Of a stretch of 54,762 nt of DNA, positions 3,241 to 26,101 are shown piece by piece. The notes beneath the pieces were generated by a model. That model was not told where the DNA came from, ran no database searches, and worked only from the letters and a program-made list of their open reading frames with translations. Numbering within the stretch: the stretch's first letter is position 1; each line of letters opens with the position of its first letter. Source of the stretch: an uncultured bacterium. GTDB lineage: Bacteria > CAIJMQ01. The position numbers and the translations under genes are program-made. The stretch spans positions 1 through 54,762 of the forward strand of contig CAZNJA010000001.1 in assembly GCA_964573245.1 (NCBI GenBank), in the 5' to 3' direction.

Positions 3241-3267
3241 AGACGTGAATGGTGGTAAAAAGTTGAC
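3241..3267 (-). promoter_or_regulatory. Putative ECF-type promoter (GTCAAC-N16-CGTCT) of the sigma operon
   Basis: The minus-sense sequence reads tGTCAACtttttaccaccattcaCGTCTAAAGA-ATG. An AAC/CGT pair with a 16-nt spacer is typical of many ECF promoters. The -35 overlaps the plus-strand TTGACA (3263-3268) upstream of rpsT. Confidence 0.3.
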
Positions 3268-12090: not shown

Positions 12091-13514
12091 TCTATTTCCC
12101 CCTCCAACAGCCCACCCCTTACCTCTATAATCTTCACCTTTACAAGTTTACCGATTAAGTCTTTATCGCTTTTAAAAGAGACGGATTTAAAATTTCGTGT
12201 TTTGCCCACGCACCAGTCCCGACTTACGTCGGGACGATGCGGGGTTTCACCGAATGATTTACTTTTATTCTTTGTGTTATATCCTTCAACAAGAATCTCA
12301 ACTTCTTTGCCGATTAACTTTTCGTTTCTCTTCTGCACTATTTTTTTCTGCAGGGACAAGAGATTATTTAGCCGTTCTTTTTTTATCCCTTCAGGAACAT
12401 TGTCTTCCATTTCGGCGGCTTTTGTTCCCGGTCTTGTTGAATACTTAAATATATAAGACGCATCAAATTCTATTTCTTTGACAAGATTATAAGTATCCAT
12501 AAAGTTTTCTTCGGTTTCGGTAGGGAAACCGACCATTATATCGGTGGTAATACTCACATCTGGAATAGTTTTCCTTATTCTATCAACAAGCCCTTTGTAC
12601 TGTTTCTGTGTGTATCTTCTATTCATCAATTTCAAAATCTTATCGGAACCGGATTGCAGAGCCAGATGTAAATGTTCACATACTTTAGGTAGATCTCTCA
12701 CAGCTTCAATAGTAGCCATAGACATATCCTTTGGGTGAGAAGTGGTAAATCTAATACGCTCTATACCGTCTATCGCATTTATTGTCTTTAGAAGTTCAGC
12801 AAAACTCCTTTGGTTTTCGGTTTTCGGTTTTCCCCCGAGAAATCTGAAAGATTTCCGGGACTTTGGTCCTTGAAATTCCATAGAATTTCTAAGGGGGGTT
12901 TCGTAAGAATTGACATTTTGACCGAGAAGTGTTACTTCCTTTGTGCCTTTACGTGCTAATTCTTTAACTTCATCTTCTATTTCTTCTATAGGGCGACTTG
13001 TTTCTCTACCCCTAACATAAGGCACAATACAATAAGTGCAGTAGTTATTGCACCCACGTATAATAGCCACCCACGCGGATATTTTGTTCTCTCTTGTTTC
13101 ATAAACGGGCGGAGAGAAATCCGCATAATCTTCGGAGGTTTCAATACGCTTCCCATTGGTTTTTAATAAATCTTTTACAAATTCATTGATTTTGGGAATA
13201 CTGTAAGTCCCGCATACAAGATTTAAGCGAGGTATTTTTGTCAACAGGTTGATCCCCTCTTTTTGCGCCATGCATCCGCATATGCCGATTATCAGTTCGG
13301 GTTTTCTATCTTGCTTATACTTGCTCCATTTCCATAAATACGAATATACTCTTTCCTCCGCATGCTGTCTCACGCTGCACGTATTAACAAGTATTACATC
13401 CGCTTCCTGCCAGGCGCCGGTAAATTCATACCCTTCTTTCAACAAAAGCGATTTTATGATTTCGGAGTCGTATTTGTTCATCTGACAGCCGAAAGTCTGA
13501 ATAAATACTTTCAT
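12087..13514 (-). CDS. miaB: tRNA-i6A37 methylthiotransferase MiaB (radical SAM), with two in-frame palindromic insertions
   Basis: The start is set at MKVFIQTFGCQMNKYDSE. It has the radical-SAM CxxxCxxC motif (CNNYCTYCIVPY) and a TRAM-like C-terminus. Extra segments lie at NVNSY-[33 aa]-FAELL and in the TRAM region. Confidence 0.85.
   Translation of the reverse strand: MKVFIQTFGCQMNKYDSEIIKSLLLKEGYEFTGAWQEADVILVNTCSVRQHAEERVYSYLWKWSKYKQDRKPELIIGICGCMAQKEGINLLTKIPRLNLVCGTYSIPKINEFVKDLLKTNGKRIETSEDYADFSPPVYETRENKISAWVAIIRGCNNYCTYCIVPYVRGRETSRPIEEIEDEVKELARKGTKEVTLLGQNVNSYETPLRNSMEFQGPKSRKSFRFLGGKPKTENQRSFAELLKTINAIDGIERIRFTTSHPKDMSMATIEAVRDLPKVCEHLHLALQSGSDKILKLMNRRYTQKQYKGLVDRIRKTIPDVSITTDIMVGFPTETEENFMDTYNLVKEIEFDASYIFKYSTRPGTKAAEMEDNVPEGIKKERLNNLLSLQKKIVQKRNEKLIGKEVEILVEGYNTKNKSKSFGETPHRPDVSRDWCVGKTRNFKSVSFKSDKDLIGKLVKVKIIEVRGGLLEGEID
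12205..12244 (-). repeat. Nested hairpin element inside the miaB coding sequence
   Basis: The coding sense reads CCCCGCA-tc-GTCCCGAC-gtaa-GTCGGGAC-tgg-TGCGTGGG, translated as ETPHRPDVSRDWCVG. The inner palindrome CCCGACGTAAGTCGGG closely resembles those at 28841-28857 and 43012-43030. Confidence 0.6.
12812..12832. repeat. Heptamer tandem GGTTTTC x3 (within miaB)
   Basis: GGTTTTCGGTTTTCGGTTTTC lies directly 5' (plus strand) of the palindromic element at 12832-12898 and is translated as part of KPKTENQ. Confidence 0.7.
12832..12898 (+). repeat. Two-hairpin palindromic element (C-run / hairpin / GGGACTTTGGTC / hairpin / G-run) inside miaB
   Basis: CCCCCGAGAAATCtgaaaGATTTCCGGGACTTTGGTCCTTGAAATTCcataGAATTTCTAAGGGGGG. 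By my hand alignment about 75 percent of columns match the intergenic element at 37607-37677, including an identical 12-mer. Confidence 0.7.
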
Positions 13515-13614
13515 AGTGGGGTTTATTATATAGGCTCTTCGACAGCGGGACAAGTTATTAAGAGGTCGTTTAGGATAGGGTAATTACTACTTTCTGTGCA
13601 GTGAGAAAACTGGC

Positions 13615-16570
13615 TTAGGGATATTCATTAAACTCCGCCCCCGAACTGATGTAAATAGTAGAGTAAGTTATTCCGTAGGCATTGACATCCTGGGTATTTC
13701 CGTATAAGTAGATGTCTCTAACTGAATTACTATAGTATTGGTCGTCTTCTAAGTGGGTATGGTCAGCTTCGTAGAGGACAATCCCGTATCTATTGCCGTG
13801 GATCTCGTTATTGATAAACTGGTTATATTTTCCTCTCCAGACTCCCATTCCCCAACCCTGGTATCTGTTGTTGTATCTTGCGAGGTTATCTCTAACCAGG
13901 TGATTGTTGCCTCCTAAATGAATTCCTTTGGCATTTCTTTCTAAAAGATTATTCCGGATTACCGTGCCTTCTCCGATTACATGAATCCCCCAGAAAGTAT
14001 CGCTTACGGTGTTGCCTTCTATCAAGCAGTTATTTCCGGTGCTGTAGATTCCCTGCCCCCTGCCGTTATTACTGGAGGATAGTGCCGAAGAAGCAGTCAG
14101 GTTACAGTTTCTTATGACGATGTTATCTGCTTCGCAGAAGACTATTATGTCTTCCAGGTACGGATTGATGATAGAGTAGCCCTGGCCGTCAAAGACAATG
14201 CCTTCTGCCTGAATCCAGATACATTTAGGAATTACTTCTTCTCCCAGTAGGTCCCGGGTGAGATAGTAGTTAGTGTAGGGCTGGTCAAGGATCTGGGGGG
14301 AAGAGATAAAAATAGGTGCTCTTGCTTCATAAGCGCCCATATCGGCTAAGGCAAAACCAGTATCAGGGATATCCATCCGCTCCTGGCCTAAGATATCGGT
14401 AGAAGGAGCAATAATATCATCAGCCACATCAAGACAGGGACTATTTTCACTCAATTGTAAACCGTCATCTAAGGTGCAGAATAGACCATCATTGCCGGCT
14501 GGACTACTTACATTTACAAACAAGGGGTCACTGTCAATGTTGTAATCTCCGGGGTAACCCCCTTCTACATTAGAGTAACTGACAACAGTATTTGAAGGTA
14601 GGTACGGGTCTTCATATATTTCATCTCCACTGTTATTCCAAAGAACACAGTTGGTAATTGTTGCATTATTGCTGACTACACCATATCCAATATTTCCGTA
14701 AAAAGTGCAGTTAGTTATTTTCCCATCACCATAAATTGCAACGTCAGTGTTATGGGTAAATACACTGTTTATAACCTCTAAAGAACCTCCATGTATTGCG
14801 CCCCCAACATTGTGGTCGAAAATACAGTTTTTAAGAGTTGCTTCGCCGTATATCCCTCCACCGTAATCAGCTCGGTTGTAACTAAATACACAATTAGTAA
14901 TTGTGGGGTTACCTGTTCCACCATAAGCATTGCATAATCCACCTCCGAAGGAAGCATCATATCCACCGGTAGCATTTCCTCCTGTAATTATTACCCCATC
15001 AAGGATGGCGGTAGGGTTGGCACCAATACCTCTTACAACGTGGGTACTATTATCGGTATAGTTGGAAAAATCAGGAGGATTTCCGTCATTACCGTCCGTG
15101 TCGCCGCTTAGTATAGTTTGATAATTTGCTATATCACGATCATCTTCATTTGCACCGGGTGGTGTGTCATAGTATCCAGCATAACCGCCTTTAACAGTTA
15201 AACGGCTTCTTAACTGAAATGTTGGGCCTCTATAAATGCCGGGTGGAGACGGGTCAAAAAAGTCTGCCTCATGAGGTTTATGTGTTCCGTGTGCTACCCA
15301 AATCTCGTCATAAGGTTGGATTTCAGAATGGTTGAGTGCGTCCTGCAGATATTTAAAGGCGGAGTACCATGATGTACCGTCTCGGTCCGGGTTTGTTTGG
15401 GCAGCATCAACATACCATACATTAGGTTCTACATACTCATATGCTCCCATATCGGCACCTATTCCTCCGTCGTTTCCTACCCCGGGAATGTCAACACGTC
15501 CTTTGCCTAATTTATCAGTAGAAGGTGCTATGGTATCGTTTGCAGCATCAATACACGGGCTGCCTTCCGCTAAGCGCAAGCCATCCTGTAATGGGTTGTC
15601 TGGATCCACAAATAACGGATTACTGTTTATATTACCTTCACCAGGGTATCCATTGGGGTTGGAGCCCGCTATATTAGAATAGGTGACAACCGGATTTGAT
15701 GTCCCCGAATTAAATATTTCGTTTATTCCTCCATTCCGCAAAATACTGTTTGTTATTACAGGGTTACTGTTAGAGTTATAGATAATACCGGCGTAAAATT
15801 CGCTCTTATTTTCAGTAAATGTGCAGTTTGTGATTTCTGGGGAGGAAGAGTTGCGGTTATATATAGCGCCACCCTCAGCTTTACTCCAATTATCATTAAA
15901 GATACAGCTTGTAAATTTTGGTGAAGAAGTGTGGTTATATATTGCACCTCCGCTTCCTAAGTAAATAGCCTCATTTCCGATGAATATACAGTTTGTAAAC
16001 TCTGGAGACGATTCGAAATTGTATACACCCCCACCCTTAGAAAATGCATCATTATTTTTGAATATACAGTTTTTGACTGTAGGGTTGCCATTGTTATTAA
16101 ACATCCCGGCACCTCTTACTTCGTCATCAGTTGGACTTGCTCCCACATAGAAGGCCTTCCCTTCTGTAATAGTGAAGCCATCGAGTATTGCAGTGGGGTT
16201 GGTATTGCTCCCGGTTATAACATGATAGCTATTATCATCATCGTAAATGGGTTCTCTTATGTTACCGCTTAGTATAGTTTCATAAAATACTATATCGCGT
16301 TCATCATGATCCCCTGTATCAATGCCACCATAACCACCTTTAATGGTCACGCTGTCTATAAGTTGGAATGTGGCTGTCCTATCGCCAGTTCCACTCTGAT
16401 TCGCTGTATCACGGTCGGGTTTGTAAGTCCCTTGTGCAACTCTGATTTCATGGCCAGGTTCAAGGTAAGGATTATTGAGAGCGTCCTGTAAATAGTGAAA
16501 TGCATCTGCCCATGATGTGCCATCCTGAAAATAACCGGCACTATCGTCGACATACCAGATATTAGTAATA
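13615..16570 (-). other. Three right-handed parallel beta-helix modules of the giant ORF
   Basis: Two modules of about 375 aa (about 15440-16570 and 14320-15440) each start N[IV]WYVD...DGTSW..AF.YLQDAL and end ADMGAYE, with many N/G-rich about-23-aa rungs. The terminal NosD/PbH1-like module (13615-14320) has GNTVSD..GIHV..GTVIRNN rungs. Confidence 0.6.
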
Positions 16571-19500
16571 GTGGTGGCATTTGCTTCATTAGAATATCCG
16601 GAATTATCAAAATTACCAAAGGCATACATTTGGTAATAGTACATCTGTCCTGCTTCTAACCCGGTATCAGAATAGGTAACCTCATCCGGCCCGATACTGG
16701 CTATCTGTTCGTACGTTCCTCCGGCACCCGTCTTTCTTTCTATCTTGAAACCATCCTCTCCGTCACTGTTATCCTGCCATGTAAGGTCTATCTGGGAAGA
16801 GGAAACGGCCTGGGCAGATAATGGCTCCGGTGGGTGTGGGTTCCATTCATTGGCAAAGACAGCGTAATCCAGGAAATTCACAATGCCGTCACCATTGAAG
16901 TCGCAACGCGCGTCCCAATGCGGGTCACCCGGCTGTGATAACCATGCGGCAATAAATACTTCAAAGTCTGCAAAGTCTACATCTCCATCCTGGTCAAAGT
17001 CGGCGGGAGAGACTGCAACAGCGCTTGCTTCATTGGAATATCCGGAACTGCCGAAGTCACCATAGGCATATACTCGATAATAATAGGTCTGTCCGGTTTC
17101 TAACCCGGTATCAGAATAGGTAACCACATTCTCGCCAACGCTGGCTATCTGTTCGTATGTTCCTTCCGCACCTGTTTTTCTTTCTATCTTAAAGCCGTCT
17201 TCTCCGTCACTGTTATCCTGCCATGTAAGGTCTATCTGGGTGGCGGAAACTGCCTGAGCAGTTAATCCGCTCGGCGAGAGTGGACCCCATTCATTAGCAA
17301 AGACAGCGTAATCCATGAAATTCACAATGCCGTCACCATTGAAGTCGCAGCGCGCGTCCCAATTCGGGTCACCCGGCTGTGACAGCCAAGCTGCAATAAA
17401 TACTGCAAAGTCTGCAAAGTCCACGTCGCCGTCCTGGTCAAAGTCAGCAGGCGAGGCTGCAACAGCGCTTGCTTCGTTGGAGTATCCTGAATTACCGAAG
17501 CCGCCAAATGCATAGACCCGATAATAATAAATCTGTCCTGGAGTTAAACCGGTATCCGAATAGGTAGTCACATTTGGCCCGACATCGGCTATCTGTTCAT
17601 ATGTGCCTTCCGCACCTGTTTTTCTTTCTATCTTAAAGCCGTCTTCTCCGTCACTATTATCCTGCCATGTAAGGTCTATCTGGGTGGCGGAAACTGCCTG
17701 AGCAGTTAGTCCGCTTGGCGAGGATGGGTTCCATTCGTTGGCAAAGACAGCATAATCCAGGAAATTCACAATGCCGTCATCATTGAAGTCGCAGCGCGCG
17801 TCCCAATTCGGGTCACCCGGCTGTGATAGCCAGGCAGCTGTAAATGTTGCAAAGTCTGCAAAGTCCACATTGCCGTCCTGGTCAAAGTCAGCAGGAGAAA
17901 CCAAACCTGTAGAGATAGTAACGATATCTTCTTTTGAGACTCCGTAATTATAACCATCATAGGGGATGCAGACTATTCTAAACTCGTCATCTTCACCGAT
18001 GTTATAAGTAGTGCAACTTAAGGTGTTAGTAGTTGCTCCCGAGAGAAGAGCCCCATTTTTATACCACTGATACGCATAATCCGGAGAGTCCCCATCCGCA
18101 TCATACCAGCCTGAAGGAGTGGCTGTTAAATCATTATTGGGATAAGCCGGGTCGGGAGTGATTGTGACGCTTGTAATCAAAGGCGGCGTATTGGAAATAG
18201 TGACAGTATCTTCTTTTGCCTCCCCGGGATCTTTACCATCATGAGGGGTGCAAATTACTTTTATTTGGTCTCCTTTAACGAAATTAGAAGAAGCCAGGGT
18301 ATCGGTGGTGGCACCTGAAATAGGAGATCCGTTTTTATACCACTGGTAGAGATAGCCTTCCGGGTCTCCCTCTGCGTCATACCAGCCTGAAGGAGTGGCT
18401 GTTAAATTATTATTGGTATAAGCCGGGTCAGGGCTGATAGTAACGCTTGTAATTGAGGGCGGCGTATTAGAAGCACTAGAAATAGTGATAGTATCTTCCC
18501 TTGCCACCCCGGGGTCATAGCCATCATAAGGAGTACATATTATTTTTATTTGGTCTCCTTCAACAAAATTAGTAGAGGCCAGGGTATTGGTGGTAGCCCC
18601 TGAGATGGGAGATCCATTTTTCTGCCATTGGTACTGATAACCAGGAGAATCGCCGTCTATATCTGACCAGCCGGAAGGAGTGGCTGTTAAATCATTATTG
18701 GGATAAGCCGGGTCGGGAGTAATGGTAACACTGGTAATTGAAGGCGGCGTATTTGAAATAGTGATAGTGTCCTCTTTTGCCTCCCCGGGGTCATAGCCGT
18801 CATAAGGGATACATATTATTTTTATTTGGTCTCCTTTAACGAAATTAGAAGAAGCTAGGGTAGCGGTGGTAGCGCCGCTGATATCCTGCCAGGAGCCGAT
18901 AAACTTCTGCCACTGGTACTGATAGCCTTCTGCGTCCCCATCCGCGTCATCCCATCCTGAAGGAGTAGCAGTTAAATCATTATTGGTATAAGCCGGGTCG
19001 GGAGTGATTGTAACGCCGGTAATCGAAGGCGGTGTATTGGTGGTTGTTCCCGTGCCGGAAGAACCCAAACCTGTCTCGACAGCATCACCATTGCGAGCTT
19101 TTACCCGGAAAGAATAAAGAGTCCGTGCGGAAAGCCCGGTGGCGGTAACTACTCCCCATGTGCTTTCTGTTTGCCAGACCTCGGTTGAACCATTATCGCC
19201 GCCGGCAGCATCCAGGTAATAATCAAAGGTAACATTATGGATAGCATATTCGGTATTAGGTGGATTCAGTCCGGGAACAATGTCCACGTCCAAACTTGAA
19301 GGAGTCGGATTATCTACTATAGGACTTCCCGGCGTCTCCGCCACAGTATAGACCTCAATCATCCCTGAATATCCGGTCTCATTAGGAACAGAAGCACTGT
19401 CTCTTGCTTTAACCTTATAATCATAAAGAGTATTTGGATTCAGGCCTGAATCAGAGTAAGAACTACTGCTCTGCCAGGAGCTGCTGTTGCCACTGGTAGA

Positions 19501-22500
19501 TTCAAAATAATACGCTACGGGAGGACTGCCAATATCGACCGCTGTAGTGGCAGTCATCTCAATCGAAGAGGAAGTCAGGGCGGAGGGTTCGGTCTCCCAG
19601 GTCATCGGGTTCGGGATGGGAGGAGTAGTATCAGCTGTTCCTGCTACCGAAATAGATAAATTATAATAATTGGTAGCACCATTATATCCTCTGACCTCAA
19701 TAAAATAAAAACCCGAGATGGGAACACTGCTCACGCTTACCGTCTCACTATCATTGGTTGTCTCGGAAGAATCAATCTGAGTTTGTGAAGGGTCATAAAG
19801 ATAAAGGTCTAAGTCGCCATAGGCATTTGTAAAATTATTAATGGTAGCGGTAAGAGTGTCTCCCACATTTAAGTTAACTTTATACCAGTCACTATCGTAA
19901 CTCTTAAGGTTATTATAGCTTCCCGAGGAAAGTTCATGCGCGTCAGCTAAAGTATCGTTATCTTCATAGGAATCATCGTTATCATAGATTCCGTGTCGGG
20001 CAAAAGCAAGTATGATCTGGGTCTCATGCGGGGTGCCGTTGCCGACATTTCCATCGCCGCCGAATCCTAAGGCGGGGTTGTCATCAGTTTCAAGCATCTC
20101 ATAAAGACTTTCCAGGAAATTGAAAGGCTTGCCGTCATGAATGTGCCTGAATATTACCTTGTCCGCCACCGCTTTGCCCACTCCCGGCATTTGCCGGAAA
20201 TCCCAGAGGGCTCCGGAATAAACAACAGAATTATGATGAACCCAACCCAAATCATTATAATTAGGATCCCTGGAATTTCCATTCGGAACAACCCCTGGAC
20301 CAAGGATCCAGTAGTCATTAGGCGGTTCTGGGTCAGAGATTTTATTCCTTATCCCCTGGTCATCAAAGCGCATTTCATGGACATTCTGAGCAATGTCCCG
20401 CGCCCCGTAAGGAAGCACGTATTCGCCTATAATGGGGTCGCCGGTAACCGAACAGGCAAAGTAATCAGCCAATCCCTCGTCCATTGTTCCCGGTTGCAGC
20501 AGGTATGGTAAATCATAGATATGGTCATTTACCCCATGGGTATACTCGTGATAAATTACATCCGAGCCCCGGGCGGGTTTTATAACATTACCCTGAAGAT
20601 CGCCATCGCCGAAATGAATACTCTGGTCACTGGAATCATAATACGCATTACCAAAATTGGTTCCCACATGGACATTTGCCTGCATCTGATAGTCCATCCC
20701 GATGCCCCCGTAACGGTTCGGGCTATTATAACCCATGTCATTCTTAAAGAAATCATGGATAAAATTAACGTGATAAAAGACATTTACCTCATCTAAGTGA
20801 GTATCGACAAGTCCATAATTCCAGAGATGGTCTACCTGAGTAGCCATGGGATACTGGGCAATAGCCTCAGCAGTATCTTCATTTATTGCCCGGCAGTAGG
20901 GCCCTTTGAGCTCGAAGATTACATCGTTTCCGGAGTCACTAATAAGGTAATAACCGGAAATGTTTGTTTCGCCTTCAACAAATACTCCTCCACCTTTGTC
21001 CAGGGTTACGGTCTCGTGAGAAATGTCTCTCGCTGTGAGTGGGTCGTCTCCATTTTCAGGAAAGACCATTCCTGAGACATTTCCTTCTACATAATCATTA
21101 CCGTCGGTATTGAAAAAGTTAAAGGCAGAAGAGTAACCGCTCCAACCTGAGTCATTCCCAGCTTTCACATGCCACCAGTATTGAGTGCCGTCTTGAGGAA
21201 ATCCTACTACAAGTTTCCAATCCCAATTACCGGCTGAACCTTCATAAAAAATGCTGCTAAAGGCGGCATCTGAAGCAACCTGAAGATAATAGTCATCTGC
21301 TCCGGAAGAAAGTGTCCACCGGAAAAGAATAATCTCTCCGTCAACGTCACTACCATCAGATGGGGAAAGTAACGTCGGCGGGATAGGGACAGAGTCAGCA
21401 TTAATAAAACTTCGGACGCTCGACCAAGAGCTCCAGCCAAGCCAGTTGCCCGCCGACACCCGCCACCAATACTGCCTCCCGTCGTCACTAAAACCTCCCA
21501 GGGTTATCCCCGTAAAATCTCCTATTGCTTCGTCATAGACTACACTAGCAAATCCGCTATCAATGGAAATCTGAAGCCAATAATCATCCGCCCCGTCCGA
21601 TTGGAACCACCAGAAATCCACCGCTGTTCCTCCCACCGCGGCATTATTTTCCGGTAAATATAGCACCGGAGGGTCGGGAATAAGAGACTCGCCATTAACA
21701 AAAGTCCACACACTCGACCAATTACTCCAACCGATACTATTCCCCGCACTCACCCGCCACCAATAGGACTGGCCGTCATCTCCAAAATCATAAAGGTCCA
21801 CCCATAAATAGGGACCAATCGCATCATCAAAGACGACTTGGGTAAAGCCGCTATCCGTAGAGACCTGAATCCAATAATCATTCGCTCTATCAGCATGTTC
21901 CCAGTCGAAAGGAATCATGGTCCCGGGAACATTGACCCCGTTTGCCGGAGAGATCAATGCCGGAATATCAGGAATAGTGGTAGGTTCGGTCCAGGTAAAA
22001 CTCTCGGTGCGTTCATTGTTGGTTTCGTCAGATTCAGTTACTTCATTATAGGAATCAGCGATAAACTCAAAGCTATGCCCGCCGGGCGTGAAGCCCATGT
22101 CAAAGGGAGCGGTTAAGTTGATATAAGTCCGGGCCGGGAAAGCAGGTATTTCCCAATAATATATATTTACACCATCGACATATAAATCTACGTAAAAGGG
22201 AACACCGGTAGTATCGTAACCGATGTTGTTAAGCTGGAACCCAACAGTGCTCCCTTCATAAGCTACCAAAGAAGTGGGGTCAAAAATATCGGTTATTTCT
22301 AAATCAGGCGTGCCGGTCCAGGTCCAACTCTTGGTGCGTTCATTGTTGGTTTCGTCAGATTCAGCTATGTCATCATCGGAGTCAGCGACAAATCTAAAGC
22401 TATGCTCCCCGGCCACGAACCCCCCGGACGCGGTAGCATAAGGCTCGATATAAGTCCGTGCCGAGAGAGAAGGTATATTCCAATTAGTTACATTCACATC

Positions 22501-23367
22501 GTCAACATATAAAGCTAGGGTAAAGGGACCGACGGCATCAGCGTAACCAGCGTTGGCAAGTCGGGCCTTAATGATGCTCTCTTCGCCGCCTTCTAAAGAA
22601 GTGGGATCATAAATATGGGTTATTTCTAAATCCGGCGTGCCGGTCCAGGTCCAACTCTCGGTGCGTTCATTGTTGGTTTCGTCAGATTCATCTACATCAT
22701 CATAGTAGTCAGCGACAAATCTAAAGCTATGCTCCCCGGCTAAGAAGAACCCCGCGGGAAAGGGAATATAAGGCCGGATGTAAGTCCATGCATCCAGAGA
22801 AGGGATATTCCAACTAGCTACACTCGCATCGTCAACATATAAAATTAAGGTAGATGGGTCGGCGTTGCCAGTTCCAATATTGGTAAGTTCGGCCTCAATG
22901 ATGCTCTCTTCGCCGCCTTCTAAAGAAGTGGGATCATAAATATCAGTTAATTCTAAATCAGGCGTGCCGGTCCAGGTCCACCATTCGGTGCGGTCCCCAT
23001 CAGCCCAAACATAAATTTTATGTGTTCCTTCGTCCAAGTAGGATCCGGGGATAACATCATAATAATAAACGGTTTCCCCCGCATTTATATAACCATCCCA
23101 CCCAACTATCCAGTAATCATCAACATATATCTCATAAACATAGTCTCCACTATCTCCATAATTATGTAGCTGCGTACGTATTGTACAATCTTCCAGAGCT
23201 TCTAAAGGGGTAACAGGCCAAAAATCTATTACCTGAACATCGGTATAGGCCATAGCAGTTGAGACGGTTGTAAAAGTTATGGCTATCAGGAAAAGCAGGG
23301 TAAAAATAGATACACGTGAGGAGGTTTTTGGAACGAGAATACGAATAATATTAGCTAATAAATTCAT
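13615..23367 (-). CDS. Giant (3250 aa) secreted multidomain protein: CARDB-like repeats, beta-sandwich repeats, M36/M4-type zinc metalloprotease, PPC domain, FN3, dockerin-like modules and three parallel beta-helix modules
   Basis: A single uninterrupted ORF with an N-terminal signal/anchor (IFTLLFLIAITFTTVSTAMA). The catalytic core has VNVFYHVNFIHDFF, HEYTHG and MDEGLADYF, giving HExxH plus Glu at thermolysin-like spacing. Repeats are described in separate features. Confidence 0.85.
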   Translation of the reverse strand: MNLLANIIRILVPKTSSRVSIFTLLFLIAITFTTVSTAMAYTDVQVIDFWPVTPLEALEDCTIRTQLHNYGDSGDYVYEIYVDDYWIVGWDGYINAGETVYYYDVIPGSYLDEGTHKIYVWADGDRTEWWTWTGTPDLELTDIYDPTSLEGGEESIIEAELTNIGTGNADPSTLILYVDDASVASWNIPSLDAWTYIRPYIPFPAGFFLAGEHSFRFVADYYDDVDESDETNNERTESWTWTGTPDLEITHIYDPTSLEGGEESIIKARLANAGYADAVGPFTLALYVDDVNVTNWNIPSLSARTYIEPYATASGGFVAGEHSFRFVADSDDDIAESDETNNERTKSWTWTGTPDLEITDIFDPTSLVAYEGSTVGFQLNNIGYDTTGVPFYVDLYVDGVNIYYWEIPAFPARTYINLTAPFDMGFTPGGHSFEFIADSYNEVTESDETNNERTESFTWTEPTTIPDIPALISPANGVNVPGTMIPFDWEHADRANDYWIQVSTDSGFTQVVFDDAIGPYLWVDLYDFGDDGQSYWWRVSAGNSIGWSNWSSVWTFVNGESLIPDPPVLYLPENNAAVGGTAVDFWWFQSDGADDYWLQISIDSGFASVVYDEAIGDFTGITLGGFSDDGRQYWWRVSAGNWLGWSSWSSVRSFINADSVPIPPTLLSPSDGSDVDGEIILFRWTLSSGADDYYLQVASDAAFSSIFYEGSAGNWDWKLVVGFPQDGTQYWWHVKAGNDSGWSGYSSAFNFFNTDGNDYVEGNVSGMVFPENGDDPLTARDISHETVTLDKGGGVFVEGETNISGYYLISDSGNDVIFELKGPYCRAINEDTAEAIAQYPMATQVDHLWNYGLVDTHLDEVNVFYHVNFIHDFFKNDMGYNSPNRYGGIGMDYQMQANVHVGTNFGNAYYDSSDQSIHFGDGDLQGNVIKPARGSDVIYHEYTHGVNDHIYDLPYLLQPGTMDEGLADYFACSVTGDPIIGEYVLPYGARDIAQNVHEMRFDDQGIRNKISDPEPPNDYWILGPGVVPNGNSRDPNYNDLGWVHHNSVVYSGALWDFRQMPGVGKAVADKVIFRHIHDGKPFNFLESLYEMLETDDNPALGFGGDGNVGNGTPHETQIILAFARHGIYDNDDSYEDNDTLADAHELSSGSYNNLKSYDSDWYKVNLNVGDTLTATINNFTNAYGDLDLYLYDPSQTQIDSSETTNDSETVSVSSVPISGFYFIEVRGYNGATNYYNLSISVAGTADTTPPIPNPMTWETEPSALTSSSIEMTATTAVDIGSPPVAYYFESTSGNSSSWQSSSSYSDSGLNPNTLYDYKVKARDSASVPNETGYSGMIEVYTVAETPGSPIVDNPTPSSLDVDIVPGLNPPNTEYAIHNVTFDYYLDAAGGDNGSTEVWQTESTWGVVTATGLSARTLYSFRVKARNGDAVETGLGSSGTGTTTNTPPSITGVTITPDPAYTNNDLTATPSGWDDADGDAEGYQYQWQKFIGSWQDISGATTATLASSNFVKGDQIKIICIPYDGYDPGEAKEDTITISNTPPSITSVTITPDPAYPNNDLTATPSGWSDIDGDSPGYQYQWQKNGSPISGATTNTLASTNFVEGDQIKIICTPYDGYDPGVAREDTITISSASNTPPSITSVTISPDPAYTNNNLTATPSGWYDAEGDPEGYLYQWYKNGSPISGATTDTLASSNFVKGDQIKVICTPHDGKDPGEAKEDTVTISNTPPLITSVTITPDPAYPNNDLTATPSGWYDADGDSPDYAYQWYKNGALLSGATTNTLSCTTYNIGEDDEFRIVCIPYDGYNYGVSKEDIVTISTGLVSPADFDQDGNVDFADFATFTAAWLSQPGDPNWDARCDFNDDGIVNFLDYAVFANEWNPSSPSGLTAQAVSATQIDLTWQDNSDGEDGFKIERKTGAEGTYEQIADVGPNVTTYSDTGLTPGQIYYYRVYAFGGFGNSGYSNEASAVAASPADFDQDGDVDFADFAVFIAAWLSQPGDPNWDARCDFNGDGIVNFMDYAVFANEWGPLSPSGLTAQAVSATQIDLTWQDNSDGEDGFKIERKTGAEGTYEQIASVGENVVTYSDTGLETGQTYYYRVYAYGDFGSSGYSNEASAVAVSPADFDQDGDVDFADFEVFIAAWLSQPGDPHWDARCDFNGDGIVNFLDYAVFANEWNPHPPEPLSAQAVSSSQIDLTWQDNSDGEDGFKIERKTGAGGTYEQIASIGPDEVTYSDTGLEAGQMYYYQMYAFGNFDNSGYSNEANATTITNIWYVDDSAGYFQDGTSWADAFHYLQDALNNPYLEPGHEIRVAQGTYKPDRDTANQSGTGDRTATFQLIDSVTIKGGYGGIDTGDHDERDIVFYETILSGNIREPIYDDDNSYHVITGSNTNPTAILDGFTITEGKAFYVGASPTDDEVRGAGMFNNNGNPTVKNCIFKNNDAFSKGGGVYNFESSPEFTNCIFIGNEAIYLGSGGAIYNHTSSPKFTSCIFNDNWSKAEGGAIYNRNSSSPEITNCTFTENKSEFYAGIIYNSNSNPVITNSILRNGGINEIFNSGTSNPVVTYSNIAGSNPNGYPGEGNINSNPLFVDPDNPLQDGLRLAEGSPCIDAANDTIAPSTDKLGKGRVDIPGVGNDGGIGADMGAYEYVEPNVWYVDAAQTNPDRDGTSWYSAFKYLQDALNHSEIQPYDEIWVAHGTHKPHEADFFDPSPPGIYRGPTFQLRSRLTVKGGYAGYYDTPPGANEDDRDIANYQTILSGDTDGNDGNPPDFSNYTDNSTHVVRGIGANPTAILDGVIITGGNATGGYDASFGGGLCNAYGGTGNPTITNCVFSYNRADYGGGIYGEATLKNCIFDHNVGGAIHGGSLEVINSVFTHNTDVAIYGDGKITNCTFYGNIGYGVVSNNATITNCVLWNNSGDEIYEDPYLPSNTVVSYSNVEGGYPGDYNIDSDPLFVNVSSPAGNDGLFCTLDDGLQLSENSPCLDVADDIIAPSTDILGQERMDIPDTGFALADMGAYEARAPIFISSPQILDQPYTNYYLTRDLLGEEVIPKCIWIQAEGIVFDGQGYSIINPYLEDIIVFCEADNIVIRNCNLTASSALSSSNNGRGQGIYSTGNNCLIEGNTVSDTFWGIHVIGEGTVIRNNLLERNAKGIHLGGNNHLVRDNLARYNNRYQGWGMGVWRGKYNQFINNEIHGNRYGIVLYEADHTHLEDDQYYSNSVRDIYLYGNTQDVNAYGITYSTIYISSGAEFNEYP
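16573..17905 (-). repeat. 3 x 444-nt tandem coding repeat (dockerin-like double EF-hand segment + FN3)
   Basis: The anchor GAAATTCACAATGCCGTC recurs at 16873, 17317 and 17761, an exact 444-nt period. The units encode SPADFDQDG.VDFADF...CDFN.DGIVNF.DYAVFANEW plus FN3 (IDLTWQDNSDGEDGFKIERK...YYYRVYA) and are about 85-90 percent identical at protein level by eye. Confidence 0.85.
17905..19035 (-). repeat. 4 x 276-285-nt tandem coding repeat (about 93-aa beta-sandwich units)
   Basis: The anchor GGCGGCGTA/GGCGGTGTA occurs at 18182, 18458, 18743 and 19028. The units encode NTPPSIT.VTITPDPAY.NNDLTATPSGW.D.DGD..GY.YQW.KNG..ISGATT.TLAS.NFV.GDQIK.IC.P.DG.DPG. Confidence 0.8.
20536..20550 (-). other. 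HExxH zinc-binding motif (HEYTH) of the protease domain
   Basis: The reverse complement of atgggtatactcgtg is CAC GAG TAT ACC CAT. The third-ligand Glu candidate, in MDEGLADYF, lies 20 residues after the second His, as in thermolysin. Confidence 0.8.
21105..21975 (-). repeat. 3 x about-97-aa Trp-rich beta-sandwich repeats
   Basis: The units resemble ...F.W....ADDYWLQ[IV]S.DS.F..VV.D.......YWWRVSAGN..GWS.WSSV..F.N. Confidence 0.7.
21975..23250 (-). repeat. 4 x CARDB-like repeats (327-nt period in the last three)
   Basis: The anchor GTGCGTTCATTGTTGGTTTCGTC occurs at 22007, 22334 and 22661. The units end ...SDETNNERTESWTWTGTPDLE, a typical CARDB C-terminal D/E-x-NN motif. Confidence 0.75.
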
Positions 23368-23389
23368 GTTTTATATTTTAAAGATTAAA

Positions 23390-24121
23390 TTATTCTTCCT
23401 TTTTATCAGATTTTTCGAGCAGCCGGGCAGTTCTTTCCCTTGGGGTGGTTCTTTTTTCCCTTGGAGGAGCAATTATTTCCTCGGTTGCTTCTCCCGCGGC
23501 TCCGCCGGGGGTTATCAGTTTTACTTTCTTCACCTTAATCCCTGTGCGGAGATTTTTCTTTTTAACATCAACTGGAGCAAGCGGTTGGGCTTCACCTATT
23601 TCAGCTTTTATTTCCCAATTTTGAGAAGAAGGAGCTAGCGGTTGAGCTTCACCTATTTCAGCTTTTATTTCCGGTTTTTTGTCAGAAGGGGTTAGCGGAA
23701 AGGCTTCTTCCTGCTGAACGCCGAAATTAAATCTTTCGCCCTGCTCCAGTCGGTGTTCTCTTGTTTGTTTTTCTCCCTCAACTGCGACTCCGATTTGATA
23801 ACTAGAGGGTTTCGTAATTACCGTGCCCCCTTTTGTTTCTAACCCAATGGGTGCAGGTGGTGTAATTTCTTTAAATTCCACTCTTTCCAGAAGAGGTGCG
23901 GGTGCAGTTTCCTTTACTTTCAACTCTCTTTTGGGGGCGGGGTTTTTTTCTATAATAACAAAATGAGGCTCTTTTTTGGTTTTTAATTCTGTTTTTTTAG
24001 GAGAAATCTGGTCAGCCGAGGATGGACCTTCTTCCGCCTTAATTTCAGAAGTACAAACGACGGTCATTATTAGACAAATTCCTATCGCCAATAAAAATTT
24101 TCTCCGGATATCCTTCATCAA
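23390..24121 (-). CDS. Secreted low-complexity P/E/K-rich protein, unknown function
   Basis: 243-aa ORF with a signal peptide (FLLAIGICLIMTVVCTSEIKA) and an internal 19-aa tandem repeat (EIKAEIGEAQPLAP...). It sits in the same operon orientation between the propeptide-like gene and the giant ORF. Confidence 0.6.
   Translation of the reverse strand: MMKDIRRKFLLAIGICLIMTVVCTSEIKAEEGPSSADQISPKKTELKTKKEPHFVIIEKNPAPKRELKVKETAPAPLLERVEFKEITPPAPIGLETKGGTVITKPSSYQIGVAVEGEKQTREHRLEQGERFNFGVQQEEAFPLTPSDKKPEIKAEIGEAQPLAPSSQNWEIKAEIGEAQPLAPVDVKKKNLRTGIKVKKVKLITPGGAAGEATEEIIAPPREKRTTPRERTARLLEKSDKKEE
23574..23700 (-). repeat. 57-nt tandem coding repeat (about 2.3 units)
   Basis: GGAGC[A/T]AGCGGTTG[G/A]GCTTCACCTATTTCAGCTTTTATTTCC starts at 23574 and 23631, and a degenerate third unit follows. 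Confidence 0.8.
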
Positions 24122-24128
24122 ATATCTC

Positions 24129-24863
24129 CTAATATCTAATATTATTGTACTTATGGATTATCTCGCTTGTTTTGGCATCAACAAAATAGAACCAATCGCC
24201 AAGCGGGTCCCGGCAGGAAATTCTCACCTTCCAGGTAAGATAATAATCTCCGTCATAGTCGGGAAATATGACCAGTTCTACGGTTGGTTCCGAATCCGGG
24301 GATTCTTCCACGCCTAAATCTGCTTTTACCAATTCAAGCGCAGTTTCCTGAGTAATAGCGGGAACAGGATCAAGGGTGATGTTGGGGTAGTAATTTAAAA
24401 CGATCTCGGTAAGTTCTCCCTTGTCGGTAACGTCGCATTTAATTCTTCCCCAGTGCACCGGGATACCTTCGTAAACCTGCTGATATTCTACAAGTTTGAA
24501 TCCTTCTCGTTCGCTTATCGCGGGCTTACCCATCTCGGACACTTTAAGCGGCATAAGAGTTTGATTTTCTTCAATAAAAGTCTTGACTACTCTATCAGGA
24601 GAGCCGGAGATAGACAGGGTGCGGTGATAGTCAATTGAACTAAGGAGTCCGGTTTTGGGATTCCAGTTAATCTTCCATTTGTTATTATAGCGGGCATTGA
24701 ATTCTTTTGCCGCTTGAACTAACTCGGCTGAGGGTTCAACTTTCTTGAAGGAGAAGGATTTAGCAGGTAAAATAAGAAATAAACTTAGAATAATCAGGTG
24801 AGCAAATAAGTTTTTTGTCCCGAATTTTCTTTTTAAATTTAAAGATAGGGAGTCTTTATTCAT
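24129..24863 (-). CDS. Stand-alone FTP + PepSY propeptide-like protein (M4/M36 protease prodomain homolog)
   Basis: 244-aa ORF with a signal peptide. The FTP-like segment is GFKLVEYQQVYEGIPVHWGRIKCDVTDKGEL. The PepSY-like segment is ITQETALELVKADLG...YYLTWKVRISCRDPLGDWFYFVDAKTSEIIHKYN. Confidence 0.65.
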   Translation of the reverse strand: MNKDSLSLNLKRKFGTKNLFAHLIILSLFLILPAKSFSFKKVEPSAELVQAAKEFNARYNNKWKINWNPKTGLLSSIDYHRTLSISGSPDRVVKTFIEENQTLMPLKVSEMGKPAISEREGFKLVEYQQVYEGIPVHWGRIKCDVTDKGELTEIVLNYYPNITLDPVPAITQETALELVKADLGVEESPDSEPTVELVIFPDYDGDYYLTWKVRISCRDPLGDWFYFVDAKTSEIIHKYNNIRY

Positions 24864-25111
24864 TGCTAACCTCTAATAAAGTTAGTTCTCTTTTTTCTCT
24901 GGAACAAAACTCAAGACTATATTATATGTATAATAAGCAGGTAGTAAATATAACACATAAAAATATTTTGTCAAGTATTCTTTTATTAGCGTCAATCCTC
25001 CTTGAAGATACCCTCTCATTCCTTTCAAAAGGCGGTGTCTAAAACGCCGAAGGCGGCTGAAGTCCTCTTTTGTTTTTCCATGGTCAAATTATATACTATA
25101 TATGGAAGTTT

Positions 25112-25136
25112 GAACCTTTTTGTTTGTGTGTACGTC
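25112..25136 (+). promoter_or_regulatory. Putative ECF-type autoregulatory promoter (GAAC-N17-CGTC)
   Basis: tttGAACCtttttgtttgtgtgtaCGTCTTA lies 17 nt upstream of the ECF sigma ATG. It has the same CGTCT -10 element as the candidate at 3241-3267. Confidence 0.35.
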
Positions 25137-25153
25137 TTATTCATGAGAGAGAA

Positions 25154-25693
25154 ATGAATAACAGGTATGAAAATCTGCATGACGAAATTCTGGTGCTTCG
25201 CAGTCAGCAAAAACAAGTTGAGGCTTTTGAGGAACTTGTTAAACGTTGGCAAAAGCGTCTCTGGAGACATGCGTTTCAAATAACACGGGATGAAAATGCC
25301 TCGTGGGATATTGTCCAAAACACTTGGATGAGAGTTATTAAATCCCTTGCACGATTGGAAGACCCCGCGGCTTTTCCTGGATGGGTTCTTCGAATCGTAA
25401 ATAACTTAGCCATAGATTGGATTCGTAAAGAGATTAAAAGAAGGAAAACGCACGAACTATATGCGCAGTCAGTTCATGATAAAGATTTGCAGCATAATTC
25501 TACTTTCGATACCGTTCAGGAAGCTATGTGCAAACTACACCCAGCTGAACATACTATTCTTGGTTTCTTCTATATCGAGGGTTTTAATCTTGATGAAATT
25601 GCAACTGTTTTGTGTATACCTAAGGGAACAGCAAAGTCCAGACTTCATTATGCCAGAAAAAAATTAAAAAATTTATTGGAGGAAAAGTTATGA
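25154..25693 (+). CDS. ECF-family RNA polymerase sigma factor
   Basis: The start is set at MNNRYENLHDE (ATG 25154, preceded by GAGAGAG). Region 2 is DIVQNTWMRVIKS...WVLRIVNNLAIDWIRK and the region 4 HTH is LDEIATVLCIPKGTAKSRLHYARKKL. Confidence 0.85.
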   Translation: MNNRYENLHDEILVLRSQQKQVEAFEELVKRWQKRLWRHAFQITRDENASWDIVQNTWMRVIKSLARLEDPAAFPGWVLRIVNNLAIDWIRKEIKRRKTHELYAQSVHDKDLQHNSTFDTVQEAMCKLHPAEHTILGFFYIEGFNLDEIATVLCIPKGTAKSRLHYARKKLKNLLEEKL

Positions 25694-26079
25694 TGGAAAA
25701 ACTGGATAAACAAATCCGGACGGTTTTTGAACAAGATTTTAAATATGATGAAAACAGACACGCAACTTCAATTAAGGAGGTGGTAAAAATGTATAGAAAA
25801 AGAACCAAAATTGCAAAATATGTAACATGGGCTTATCTTTTTTTTGCGACGGGGCTTATCCTATTCTGTTTTTGGCAGTTCTTTAGAACAGACAACATGA
25901 AGACAATGATTCTTATGGCTATCGTCATTCTCATATTGCACGAAGTTACTATATTAATGAAACTATGGTGGTGGGTTTACAGCTCGAGAAATGCTACCTT
26001 GGAAAGTTTAAAAACAATCCAGTATCAACTTAATGAGATACAAGGAGCAAATACGAAGAAAACTGATCCGAATAATTAG
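25690..26079 (+). CDS. Small two-TM membrane protein, candidate cognate anti-sigma factor
   Basis: 129-aa ORF with an ATGA overlap with the sigma stop and two TM segments (YVTWAYLFFATGLILFCFWQFF and MILMAIVILILHEVTILMKLWWW). The function is inferred from position only. Confidence 0.45.
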   Translation: MMEKLDKQIRTVFEQDFKYDENRHATSIKEVVKMYRKRTKIAKYVTWAYLFFATGLILFCFWQFFRTDNMKTMILMAIVILILHEVTILMKLWWWVYSSRNATLESLKTIQYQLNEIQGANTKKTDPNN

Positions 26080-26101
26080 GATAATTCGGCCCTGCTTTTA
26101 C

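What the first reader, a model, noticed from the sequence alone, without database searches (positions are those of the whole stretch)
13615..24863. An operon encodes a 3250-aa secreted protease/adhesin giant protein
Seen in sequence:
- One uninterrupted 9.75-kb ORF follows two small secreted-protein genes on the same strand, with gaps of 7 and 22 nt.
- From motifs, the architecture runs: signal/anchor, 4 CARDB-like repeats, 3 Trp-rich beta-sandwich repeats, and an M36/M4-type catalytic core (VNVFYHVNFIHDFF, HEYTHG, and Glu in MDEGLADYF at thermolysin spacing).
- It continues with a PPC domain, 2 FN3 domains, 4 units of about 93 aa, 3 (dockerin-like + FN3) units, two about-375-aa parallel beta-helix modules, and a NosD/PbH1-like beta-helix.
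- I see no recognisable C-terminal sorting signal (no LPXTG, PEP-CTERM or T9SS-like tail) and no cohesin partner in the window.

Inference:
- This is a cell-surface or secreted machine combining proteolysis, Ca-dependent docking and carbohydrate- or surface-binding beta-helices.
- Proteins of this kind are proposed to mediate attachment or predation in small-celled uncultivated bacteria.
- The combination in one polypeptide looks unusual.
Basis: partly seen in the sequence, partly recalled or inferred. Interest (0 to 1): 0.6.

Follow-up and report, generated by a model that had tools for sequence, protein, structure and literature searches.

The report
Giant decorated zinc protease, separate prodomain
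A small-genome uncultivated bacterium (Ratteibacteria/Omnitrophota-like) encodes a real 3250-residue exported protein with a thermolysin-type zinc protease between many binding-type modules, and the protease's "safety-cap" prodomain is made by a separate gene just upstream; it is a new variant of a common theme, not a new kind of system.

Summary

- **Modules:** 3 clear and 1 degenerate CARDB, 3 Trp-rich FN3-like repeats, a thermolysin-like core, PPC, FN3, four Ig-like units, three dockerin+FN3 units, two 375-aa beta-helix modules and a NosD-like beta-helix.
- **Protease core:** it has every catalytic residue. It folds confidently (pLDDT 92) onto M4 enzymes such as vibriolysin, aureolysin and thermolysin. 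It is nearer M4 than M36.
the first "small secreted protein" is the FTP+PepSY prodomain of this protease, encoded in trans. 124 of 152 relatives carry it in cis. The nearest relatives with Trp-rich repeats before the catalytic domain also have it as a separate upstream gene.
- **Distribution:** the operon is accessory. It is absent from three same-genus genomes and sits at a variable site. A 69%-identical copy of the operon head exists in another metagenome.
- **Partners:** no cohesin is found, and dockerins occur only in this protein.
- **Export:** a Sec signal plus one of the many T2SS-like machines is plausible but untested.

Verdict: a new variant of a known kind, of moderate interest.

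The parts
24947..24974 (-). sigma-70-like promoter candidate (TTGACA-16-TG-TATATT) about 85 nt upstream of the first gene
   Evidence: 11 of 12 matches with an extended -10. This is a consensus match only; the number of sites in the region is no higher than in shuffles.
24129..24863 (-). gene 1 (P0003, 244 aa): exported stand-alone FTP+PepSY prodomain of the protease
   Evidence: Pfam FTP E 2.7e-4 and PepSY E 3e-4. An HMM built from the stand-alone proteins hits the N-terminal cis-propeptides of 124 of 152 family members, with E down to 1e-56. AF2 pLDDT 90.5. Best Foldseek hits are the propeptide chains of vibriolysin MCP-02 (3nqz_A) and Aspergillus M36 (4k90_B).
23390..24118 (-). gene 2 (P0002, ~242 aa): signal peptide followed by a K/E/P-rich low-complexity protein with a 19-aa tandem repeat; function unknown
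   Evidence: No Pfam or NCBIfam hit. 57-nt tandem repeat at 23574-23707. A 43%-identical ortholog sits in the same position in L001. GGAG lies before the ATG at 24118.
23248..23367 (-). N-terminal Sec-type signal peptide of the giant protein (residues 1-40, ...STAMA/YT)
   Evidence: Read from the sequence. The AxA motif is kept in the L001 ortholog. Cleavage is inferred.
21988..23247 (-). CARDB-like repeats: one degenerate (43-123) and three clear (135-460)
21109..21975 (-). three Trp-rich ~95-aa FN3-like beta-sandwich repeats (465-753)
   Evidence: The same repeat occurs x6, x9 and x1 directly before the protease in P0017, P0018 and P0023.
19963..21105 (-). beta-sandwich (755-850) plus thermolysin-like zinc protease core (850-1135): HEYTH 940-944, Glu964, Asp968, Arg990, His1044, Asn907
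   Evidence: Pfam Peptidase_M4 46.6 bits. Invariant columns in a 38-sequence alignment. AF2 pLDDT 92.4, pTM 0.92. Foldseek to M4 structures: E ~1e-13, TM 0.70-0.74. Profile against PDB: M4 E 2e-22, M36 E 1e-11.
19687..19896 (-). PPC (pre-peptidase C-terminal) domain, residues 1158-1227
   Evidence: 30.5 bits against a cut-off of 25.9. The closest homologue, P0017, ends just after its PPC.
19039..19635 (-). two FN3-like domains (1245-1443)
   Evidence: fn3 E 6e-7 for the second; the first is weak.
17908..19038 (-). four ~93-aa Ig-like units (1445-1820)
   Evidence: Ig_2 E 1.9e-8. ZirU-like. Four full copies. 285-nt tandem repeat at 78%.
16570..17901 (-). three (dockerin-like + FN3) units (1823-2266), each dockerin with two DxDxDG-type Ca loops
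   Evidence: Dockerin_1 E 1.4e-22 and fn3 E 9e-26. dockerin_GC. Units are 80-87% identical in DNA.
14323..16563 (-). two ~375-aa right-handed beta-helix modules, each ending in a choice-of-anchor-Q segment (2269-3015)
   Evidence: Beta_helix E 3e-20. choice_anch_Q x2. Paralogous modules (41-45% identity) sit on an S8 subtilase elsewhere in the genome.
13615..14322 (-). C-terminal NosD/PbH1-like beta-helix (3016-3250) and stop codon; no sorting tail
   Evidence: NosD E 3e-10. No anchor models hit.

Best explanation
This is a three-gene operon for a two-component zymogen.

**Gene 3** encodes a Sec-exported 3250-aa protein. Its enzymatic heart is an active thermolysin-like (clan MA(E), M4-like) zinc endopeptidase. 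Non-catalytic beta-sandwich and beta-helix modules flank it on both sides. They most likely hold the enzyme on a target or cell surface: CARDB and Trp-rich FN3-like repeats on the N-terminal side, and PPC, FN3, Ig-like, Ca-binding dockerin-like and beta-helix modules on the C-terminal side.

**Gene 1** supplies the FTP+PepSY prodomain as a separate exported protein. I infer that it binds the catalytic domain in the periplasm, helps it fold and keeps it inhibited until it is released or degraded, as cis-prodomains of M4 enzymes do. Supplying the prodomain in trans lets N-terminal modules stay attached to the mature enzyme, because no autocleavage is needed between prodomain and catalytic domain.

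**Gene 2** is an exported low-complexity protein of unknown role.

**Export** across the outer membrane is probably through one of the genome's type-II-secretion-like machines.

**What is shown:** the ORFs, the domain identities, the complete catalytic residues, both folds, the homology of gene 1 to cis-prodomains, the recurrence of the split arrangement, and the accessory distribution.

**What is inferred:** activity, the chaperone/inhibitor role, the secretion route, and any adhesion or prey-surface function.
For: - **ORF and operon:**
- **Domains:**
- **Catalytic site:** His940, Glu941, His944, Glu964, Asp968, Arg990 and Asn907 are invariant, and His1044 nearly invariant, in 38 diverse relatives.
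- **Fold of the core:** pLDDT 92.4. Best PDB matches are vibriolysin MCP-02, aureolysin and thermolysin.
- **Gene 1 is the prodomain:** weak Pfam FTP and PepSY hits. Its profile finds cis-propeptides in 124 of 152 family members. Its model matches the prodomain chains 3nqz_A and 4k90_B.
- **The giant protein has no cis-prodomain**.
- **The split recurs:** L001, a 69%-identical copy of the operon head with the same three-gene order; L002, two prodomain genes before P0017; L003/L004 before P0018; L086 before P0023.
- **N-terminal decoration:** all four split proteases carry Trp-rich repeats directly N-terminal to the catalytic domain.
- **Contrast set:** none of 80 species-representative loci has a separate prodomain ORF.
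- **One-to-one pairing:** one protease copy and one prodomain gene in the genome.
- **Secretion machinery:** 5 secretins, 4 GspG-type pseudopilins and about 10 GspE-like ATPases in 1.46 Mb.
- **Second example of the module theme:** an S8 subtilase in the same genome carries three copies of the same beta-helix module.
Against: - There are no expression, proteomic or read-level data.
- The giant gene has no clear Shine-Dalgarno sequence.
- The C-terminal ~2000 residues are not confirmed by any independent assembly. The nearest homologue stops after PPC.
- Pfam scores of gene 1 are at or below the gathering cut-offs.
- The tree needs two changes for the trans state, and P0023 sits on a long branch. 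The split may therefore not have a single origin.
- No cohesin or other dockerin protein exists, so the partner of the dockerin-like modules is unknown.
- The long hydrophobic N-terminal segment could be an uncleaved anchor, which would keep the protein in the envelope.
- The substrate is unknown.
Confidence: 0.7

Rival explanations
1. Polyprotein. The 3250-aa product is a precursor that is cut after secretion, for example around the PPC domain. This would give a ~1200-aa decorated protease and a separate ~2000-aa dockerin/beta-helix adhesin. It is compatible with the main explanation and differs only in the mature form.
For: The closest homologue, P0017 (50% identity over residues 462-1242), ends just after its PPC domain. 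From established knowledge of vibriolysin-type M4 enzymes, PPC domains are usually removed during maturation. The C-terminal beta-helix modules also occur on another protease in the genome, so they behave as a transferable cassette.
Against: No cleavage site can be predicted. One uninterrupted frame is kept. There is no evidence on the mature form.
Confidence: 0.3
2. Assembly artefact. The giant ORF is a chimera or has collapsed or expanded repeat copies, so the true gene is shorter or split.
For: It is a metagenome-assembled genome in 110 contigs. The ORF contains three tandem-repeat blocks. The C-terminal 2000 aa have no independent assembly. The read check was impossible.
Against: - The longest exact internal repeat is only 52 nt, and repeat units are 70-87% identical, so ordinary assemblers can resolve them.
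- The frame stays open through whole-unit repeats.
- The operon head was assembled independently in another sample.
- Residues 462-1242 are collinear with P0017.
- GC3 is fairly even along the modules.
Confidence: 0.07
3. Envelope-retained protein. The N-terminal hydrophobic segment is an uncleaved signal anchor, and the protein acts in the periplasm or on the cell's own envelope rather than outside.
For: The h-region is long, about 22 residues. There is no C-terminal sorting signal. The secretin in the window is 12 kb away behind unrelated genes.
Against: The AxA motif after the h-region is conserved in the ortholog. CARDB, dockerin and beta-helix modules are typical of extracellular proteins. 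T2SS-like machinery is abundant.
Confidence: 0.15
4. Gene 1 is only a regulatory inhibitor, or a decayed remnant, and is not needed for folding. The protease would fold on its own, like prodomain-less family members.
For: Some giant family members (the P0013 type) show no prodomain in cis or next door. PepSY proteins can act purely as inhibitors, for example YpeB on SleB (PMC13556211).
Against: Gene 1 is conserved at 69% identity, more than gene 2 at 43%. It has a confident full two-domain fold. It is tightly coupled upstream in four independent lineages.
Confidence: 0.25

Closest known systems
M4 thermolysin-family peptidases with FTP-PepSY propeptide and C-terminal PPC (vibriolysin MCP-02, PDB 3nqx/3nqz; aureolysin 1bqb; thermolysin 1kei)
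   Same: HExxH plus Glu 20 residues on; Asn, Asp, Arg and His active-site residues; the two-lobed fold (TM 0.70-0.74); an FTP+PepSY prodomain fold; PPC directly after the catalytic domain.
   Different: The prodomain is a separate gene. About 750 residues of CARDB and FN3-like repeats precede the catalytic domain, with an extra beta-sandwich at 755-850, and about 2000 residues follow PPC. Sequence identity to solved M4 structures is only 16-19%. Peptidase_M4_C is not detected in this protein.
M36 fungalysins (Aspergillus fumigatus Mep, PDB 4k90)
   Same: HEYTHG-type zinc motif, an N..FYH.N..HD block, and an FTP prodomain.
   Different: Pfam Peptidase_M36 does not hit this protein. Fold and profile matches are weaker than to M4 (TM ~0.52; E 1e-11 against 2e-22).
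Giant surface proteins of Omnitrophota ('Dockerin-type' and 'Archaeovorin' proteins; West-Roberts et al., bioRxiv 10.1101/2023.11.21.568195)
   Same: A small-genome, uncultivated host near Omnitrophota; a very long exported protein with dockerin repeats and beta-helices; many T2SS-like loci; a proposed attachment or prey-surface role.
   Different: It is ten times shorter than those proteins (>=30,000 aa). It has no TSP3, discoidin, SecA, C39 or transmembrane regions. It is built around an M4-like protease, which that paper does not describe. The T2SS-like genes are not adjacent.
Cellulosomal type-I dockerin-cohesin systems
   Same: Three Dockerin_1 modules with paired Ca-binding loops.
   Different: There is no cohesin anywhere in the genome and no other dockerin-bearing protein. 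The dockerins are internal rather than terminal.
Trans-acting prodomain-like partners (Bacillus YpeB-SleB; lipase-specific foldase Lif; propeptide-like inhibitors of subtilisins and cathepsins)
   Same: A separately encoded, operon-linked protein with a prodomain or PepSY fold that controls or folds a secreted hydrolase (PMC13556211 for YpeB; the others from general knowledge).
   Different: Here the partner is a true homologue of the family's own cis-prodomain (FTP+PepSY), and the target is the cognate M4-like protease. I found no published natural example for M4 or M36.

Membership tests
Peptidase family M4 (thermolysin) | HExxH zinc motif with the third ligand Glu 20 residues after the second His | tested here: met
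   His940, Glu941, His944 and Glu964; invariant in 38 relatives
Peptidase family M4 (thermolysin) | Pfam Peptidase_M4 (N-terminal catalytic lobe) above the gathering score | tested here: met
   46.6 bits against 22.4
Peptidase family M4 (thermolysin) | Pfam Peptidase_M4_C (alpha-helical lobe) above the gathering score | tested here: not met
   Not reported for P0001 at E<=0.01. Relatives score 21-37 bits. The helical lobe is nonetheless present in the model.
Peptidase family M4 (thermolysin) | Two-lobed thermolysin fold | tested here: met
   AF2 pLDDT 92.4. Foldseek to 3nqx, 1bqb and 1kei: E ~1e-13, TM 0.70-0.74 normalised to the target.
Peptidase family M4 (thermolysin) | N-terminal FTP/PepSY propeptide on the same polypeptide | tested here: not met
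   No cis match. The prodomain is the separate gene at 24129-24863.
Peptidase family M36 (fungalysin) | Pfam Peptidase_M36 match | tested here: not met
   No hit in P0001. Relatives give only weak hits. PDB M36 matches are weaker than M4 matches.
Cellulosome-type dockerin-cohesin system | Dockerin module with two Ca-binding loop-helix repeats | tested here: met
   Dockerin_1 x3, E 1.4e-22. The DFDQDGNVDFAD and DFNDDGIVNFLD loops are readable in the sequence.
Cellulosome-type dockerin-cohesin system | Cohesin-bearing partner encoded in the genome | tested here: not met
   PF00963 gives 0 matches in the 93%-complete genome, and the control genomes are detected.
Omnitrophota 'Dockerin-type' giant proteins (West-Roberts 2023) | >=30,000 aa with many dockerin and TSP3 repeats, discoidin domains, and C-terminal TM and SecA-like regions | tested here: not met
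   3250 aa with 3 dockerins. No TSP3, F5_F8_type_C or SecA hits.
Proteins with a known C-terminal sorting signal (LPXTG, PEP-CTERM, T9SS CTD) | Recognisable sorting domain at the C-terminus | tested here: not met
   No such NCBIfam or Pfam model hit. The protein ends inside the NosD-like beta-helix.
Type II secretion substrate | Sec/Tat signal plus a T2SS in the genome; export shown experimentally | tested here: inconclusive
   A signal peptide is readable. Secretins, GspG-like and GspE-like genes are present.

The most novel reading that the evidence does not exclude
The operon is a natural 'split zymogen'. In one lineage of thermolysin-like proteases, the intramolecular chaperone/inhibitor (FTP+PepSY) became a separately exported intermolecular foldase-inhibitor. 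That would free the N-terminus of the catalytic domain to carry permanent targeting modules. The resulting 350-kDa enzyme would be the contact weapon or anchor with which an ultra-small Ratteibacteria-like cell attacks or holds a partner's proteinaceous surface.
Probability: 0.3. Interest if true: 0.65.

Novelty: new variant of a known kind. Interest (0 to 1): 0.45.

Why it matters
- **Protease folding.** Thermolysin-type proteases are the textbook case of folding by an intramolecular chaperone. A conserved natural system in which that chaperone is a separate gene, paired one-to-one with its protease, offers a direct test of what the prodomain does (foldase or inhibitor) and why it is normally fused.
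- **Biology of the host.** The protein is one of the largest investments (0.67% of a 1.46-Mb genome) of an uncultivated small-genome bacterium. It is a concrete candidate for how such cells attach to or digest the surfaces of other cells.
- **Annotation.** The protease belongs to a very large, mostly unannotated M4-like family that is widespread in candidate phyla and DPANN archaea.

Tried and rejected
- **Cohesin partner:** none in the genome. Self-built HMMs find dockerin, CARDB, Trp-rich and Ig-like units only in this protein.
- **Full-length homologues:** among 5.8 billion proteins of 0.55-1.75 times the length, none is above 35% identity in the protease region.
- **Horizontal transfer from composition:** the 45.6% GC against 38.4% for the genome lies mostly in codon positions 1 and 2, so it reflects amino-acid make-up. 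GC3 (0.42) falls within the range of neighbouring genes. This is not decisive.
- **Secretin at 88-1497 as a dedicated exporter:** it is one of five secretins and is separated from the operon by tRNAs, asd and miaB. No specific link was found.
- **L002's 8895-aa neighbour as a relative of the C-terminal half:** no similarity in the 1252 residues held.
- **P0013-type giants as further split cases:** no prodomain gene next to them.
- **Published precedent for a naturally split M4/M36 prodomain:** none found in two searches. One search failed because a term was too short.
- **PDB sequence search with the beta-helix and NosD-like modules:** no hits.
Full report
**1. Observation**

The window has one uninterrupted ORF on the minus strand, 13615-23367, of 3250 codons. 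Two same-strand ORFs precede it: 24129-24863 (P0003, 244 aa) and 23390-24121 (P0002). The gaps are 7 and 22 nt, as reported. P0002 more likely begins at the ATG at 24118, which has a GGAG in front and matches its ortholog's start.

A strong sigma-70-like site, TTGACA-16-TG-TATATT, lies at 24974-24947, about 85 nt before the first gene. No terminator-like site separates the three genes. An ECF sigma gene and a DUF6768 gene diverge from the operon, and miaB follows it.

**2. Architecture**

| Residues | Module | Support |
|---|---|---|
| 1-40 | signal peptide, ends AMA/Y | read from sequence |
| 43-123 | degenerate CARDB-like unit | iE 4e-4 |
| 135-460 | three clear CARDB | Pfam E 8.5e-53 |
| 465-753 | three Trp-rich ~95-aa repeats | no significant Pfam hit; weakly FN3-like |
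| 755-850 | beta-sandwich | AF2 model, Foldseek |
| 850-1135 | catalytic core | Peptidase_M4, 46.6 bits |
| 1158-1227 | PPC | 30.5 bits |
| 1245-1443 | two FN3-like domains | second E 6e-7; first weak |
| 1445-1820 | four Ig-like units | Ig_2 E 1.9e-8 |
| 1823-2266 | three dockerin+FN3 units | Dockerin_1 E 1.4e-22 |
| 2269-3015 | two ~375-aa right-handed beta-helix modules ending in choice-of-anchor-Q segments | Beta_helix E 3e-20 |
| 3016-3250 | NosD-like beta-helix | E 3e-10 |

No LPXTG, PEP-CTERM or T9SS model is hit.

**3. Is the ORF an assembly artefact?**

Indirect evidence argues against collapse or chimerism:
- The three tandem-repeat blocks are only 78-86% self-identical.
- Units are 70-87% identical in DNA, and the longest exact internal repeat is 52 nt.
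- A 69%-identical copy of the operon head (prodomain gene, K/E-rich gene, start of a CARDB protein) was assembled independently from another sample (L001).
- Residues 462-1242 are collinear with the 1111-aa protein P0017 at 50% identity.

The C-terminal 2000 residues have no independent confirmation.

**4. The protease**

A search of 1.84 billion representative proteins with residues 755-1135 found 3066 relatives (594 at E<=1e-10). Many are 1000-3400 aa long. Species-representative genomes that carry it span many candidate bacterial phyla, DPANN archaea and Methanosarcina.

In a 38-sequence alignment the following are invariant: His940, Glu941, His944, Glu964, Asp968, Tyr969, Arg990 and Asn907. 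His1044 is nearly invariant. By position and spacing these correspond to the thermolysin zinc ligands and catalytic residues (established knowledge of M4).

AlphaFold2 with that alignment gives pLDDT 92.4 and pTM 0.92. Foldseek places the model on vibriolysin MCP-02, aureolysin, thermolysin, ProA and LasB (E ~1e-13 to 1e-10, TM 0.6-0.74). M36 fungalysins match less well (E ~1e-7, TM ~0.52). The first ~95 residues form a separate CnaB/transthyretin-like sandwich.

A profile search of PDB sequences agrees: M4 at E 2e-22, M36 at E 1e-11. The core is therefore a complete, probably active, thermolysin-like enzyme from a distinct lineage. It is nearer M4, although its HEYTHG motif looks M36-like.

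**5. The prodomain is a separate gene**

P0003 has weak Pfam hits to FTP and PepSY. I built an HMM from P0003 and its stand-alone relatives. It matches the N-terminal region of 124 of 152 family members, with E down to 1e-56. It does not match the giant protein, P0017 or P0018.

P0003 folds confidently (pLDDT 90.5). Its best PDB matches are the propeptide chains of autoprocessed vibriolysin MCP-02 (3nqz_A, 3nqy_A) and of Aspergillus M36 (4k90_B), followed by the PepSY protein YpeB.

Stand-alone prodomain genes lie directly upstream of the closest relatives:
- two before P0017 (L002);
- one before P0018 (L003/L004);
- one before P0023 (L086).

None of 80 species-representative loci has a separate prodomain ORF.

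All four trans-type proteases carry the Trp-rich repeat (x3, x6, x9, x1) immediately N-terminal to the catalytic region. On a quick ML tree the giant protein and P0017 are sisters (SH-aLRT 95). They group with P0018 and with a cis pair, P0019/P0020, whose prodomain is separated from the catalytic domain by a ~220-aa spacer. P0023 falls elsewhere on a long branch, so there may have been one or two fissions.

Inference: moving the prodomain into trans lets N-terminal modules remain on the mature enzyme, which a cleaved cis-prodomain would not allow.

I found no published natural split M4 or M36 prodomain. Earlier unchecked notes of this scan report free-standing FTP-PepSY genes in several other phyla, so the phenomenon may be broader.

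**6. Host and distribution**

The genome is 1.46 Mb in 110 contigs and 93% complete. Its Asd protein is 82% identical to one from a Candidatus Ratteibacteria MAG and about 70% identical to Omnitrophota proteins.

The protease is absent from three same-genus, one same-family and four same-class genomes. In two same-genus genomes the region upstream of miaB holds other genes. The operon is therefore accessory and sits at a variable site.

Its higher GC (45.6% against 38.4%) is mostly due to amino-acid composition.

The genome has one protease copy, one prodomain gene, no cohesin and no other dockerin protein. It also has 5 secretins, 4 GspG-type pseudopilins and about 10 GspE-like ATPases.

A second protease, an S8 subtilase on contig C20, carries three copies of the same beta-helix module at 41-45% identity. 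In this organism, then, these modules act as a shared appendage of exported proteases.

**7. Mechanism**

Most likely (0.7): all three products are exported by Sec. P0003 binds, folds and inhibits the catalytic domain in the periplasm. The giant protein is then passed outward, probably by a T2SS-like machine. There its CARDB, FN3, Ig, dockerin-like and beta-helix modules hold the active protease on a surface, either its own or that of a partner or prey cell.

Rivals:
- post-secretory cutting near PPC into a protease and an adhesin (0.3; compatible with the main model);
- retention in the envelope by an uncleaved anchor (0.15);
- P0003 acting only as an inhibitor (0.25);
- an assembly artefact (0.07).

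The role of P0002 is unknown.

**8. Comparison and verdict**

The protein works like a decorated M4 zymogen. It fails two family criteria: it has no cis propeptide and no Peptidase_M4_C hit. It is not an M36 member by profile.

It resembles the giant Omnitrophota surface proteins in theme (10.1101/2023.11.21.568195; 10.64898/2026.06.07.730766). It is ten times smaller than those and lacks their defining domains.

It is not a cellulosome component. The exact domain string is unique, but the theme is common. The distinctive point is the trans-encoded prodomain. Verdict: a new variant of a known kind, interest about 0.45.

Noticed in passing
own genome contig C20:51-5531 (minus strand), outside the window: An ~1826-aa S8 subtilase with a signal peptide, a beta-helix, an I9 propeptide and three beta-helix modules 41-45% identical to those of the giant protein. 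It is interrupted by a single in-frame TAA exactly between the I9 propeptide and the catalytic domain, with AAGGAAGG-N4-GTG just after the stop. It could be a pseudogene, a sequencing error or a second 'split prodomain' case.
   Followed up: partly
window 13514-26356, compared with L098 (G001:C4) and L099 (G003:C44): The stretch between miaB and the alpha/beta-hydrolase gene differs in every same-genus genome. G001 has dehydroquinate-synthase-like and aldolase-like genes plus a small GIY-YIG gene. G003 has a carbamoyltransferase-like gene plus a GIY-YIG gene. This looks like a hot spot for accessory genes.
   Followed up: partly
window 23574-23707: P0002 contains a 57-nt (19-aa) tandem repeat, EIKAEIGEAQPLAPS..., in 2.4 copies. 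The protein evolves much faster (43% identity to its ortholog) than the prodomain gene beside it (69%).
   Followed up: partly
L002:11580-15336: The contig that carries P0017, the closest relative, also encodes a called gene of 8895 residues 2.2 kb downstream. It is unrelated to the C-terminal half of the window's protein in the part held.
   Followed up: partly
L086:7873-11859: The trans-prodomain protease P0023 is followed by an M23 peptidase with SLH domains and a >1400-aa Laminin_G_3 protein, which suggests a cell-wall-directed gene cluster in that organism.
   Followed up: no
own genome (contigs C1, C12, C17, C53, C77 and others): Five secretins, four GspG-type pseudopilins and about ten GspE/PilB-like ATPases in a 1.46-Mb genome. 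On C12 a secretin lies about 9 kb upstream of another giant ORF (>=2544 aa) that runs off the contig.
   Followed up: partly
window 13514-13553: miaB most likely starts at the ATG at 13514 (MKVFIQTFGCQ...), not at the TTG at 13553 listed mechanically. A TTGTCC-17-TATAAT site lies at 13553-13525 in the 100-nt spacer after the giant gene.
   Followed up: partly
L006 (DYIV01000029.1): The closest species-representative relative of the protease (44% identity) is in a mine-water MAG labelled Slackia heliotrinireducens. That label looks improbable for this gene and habitat.
   Followed up: no
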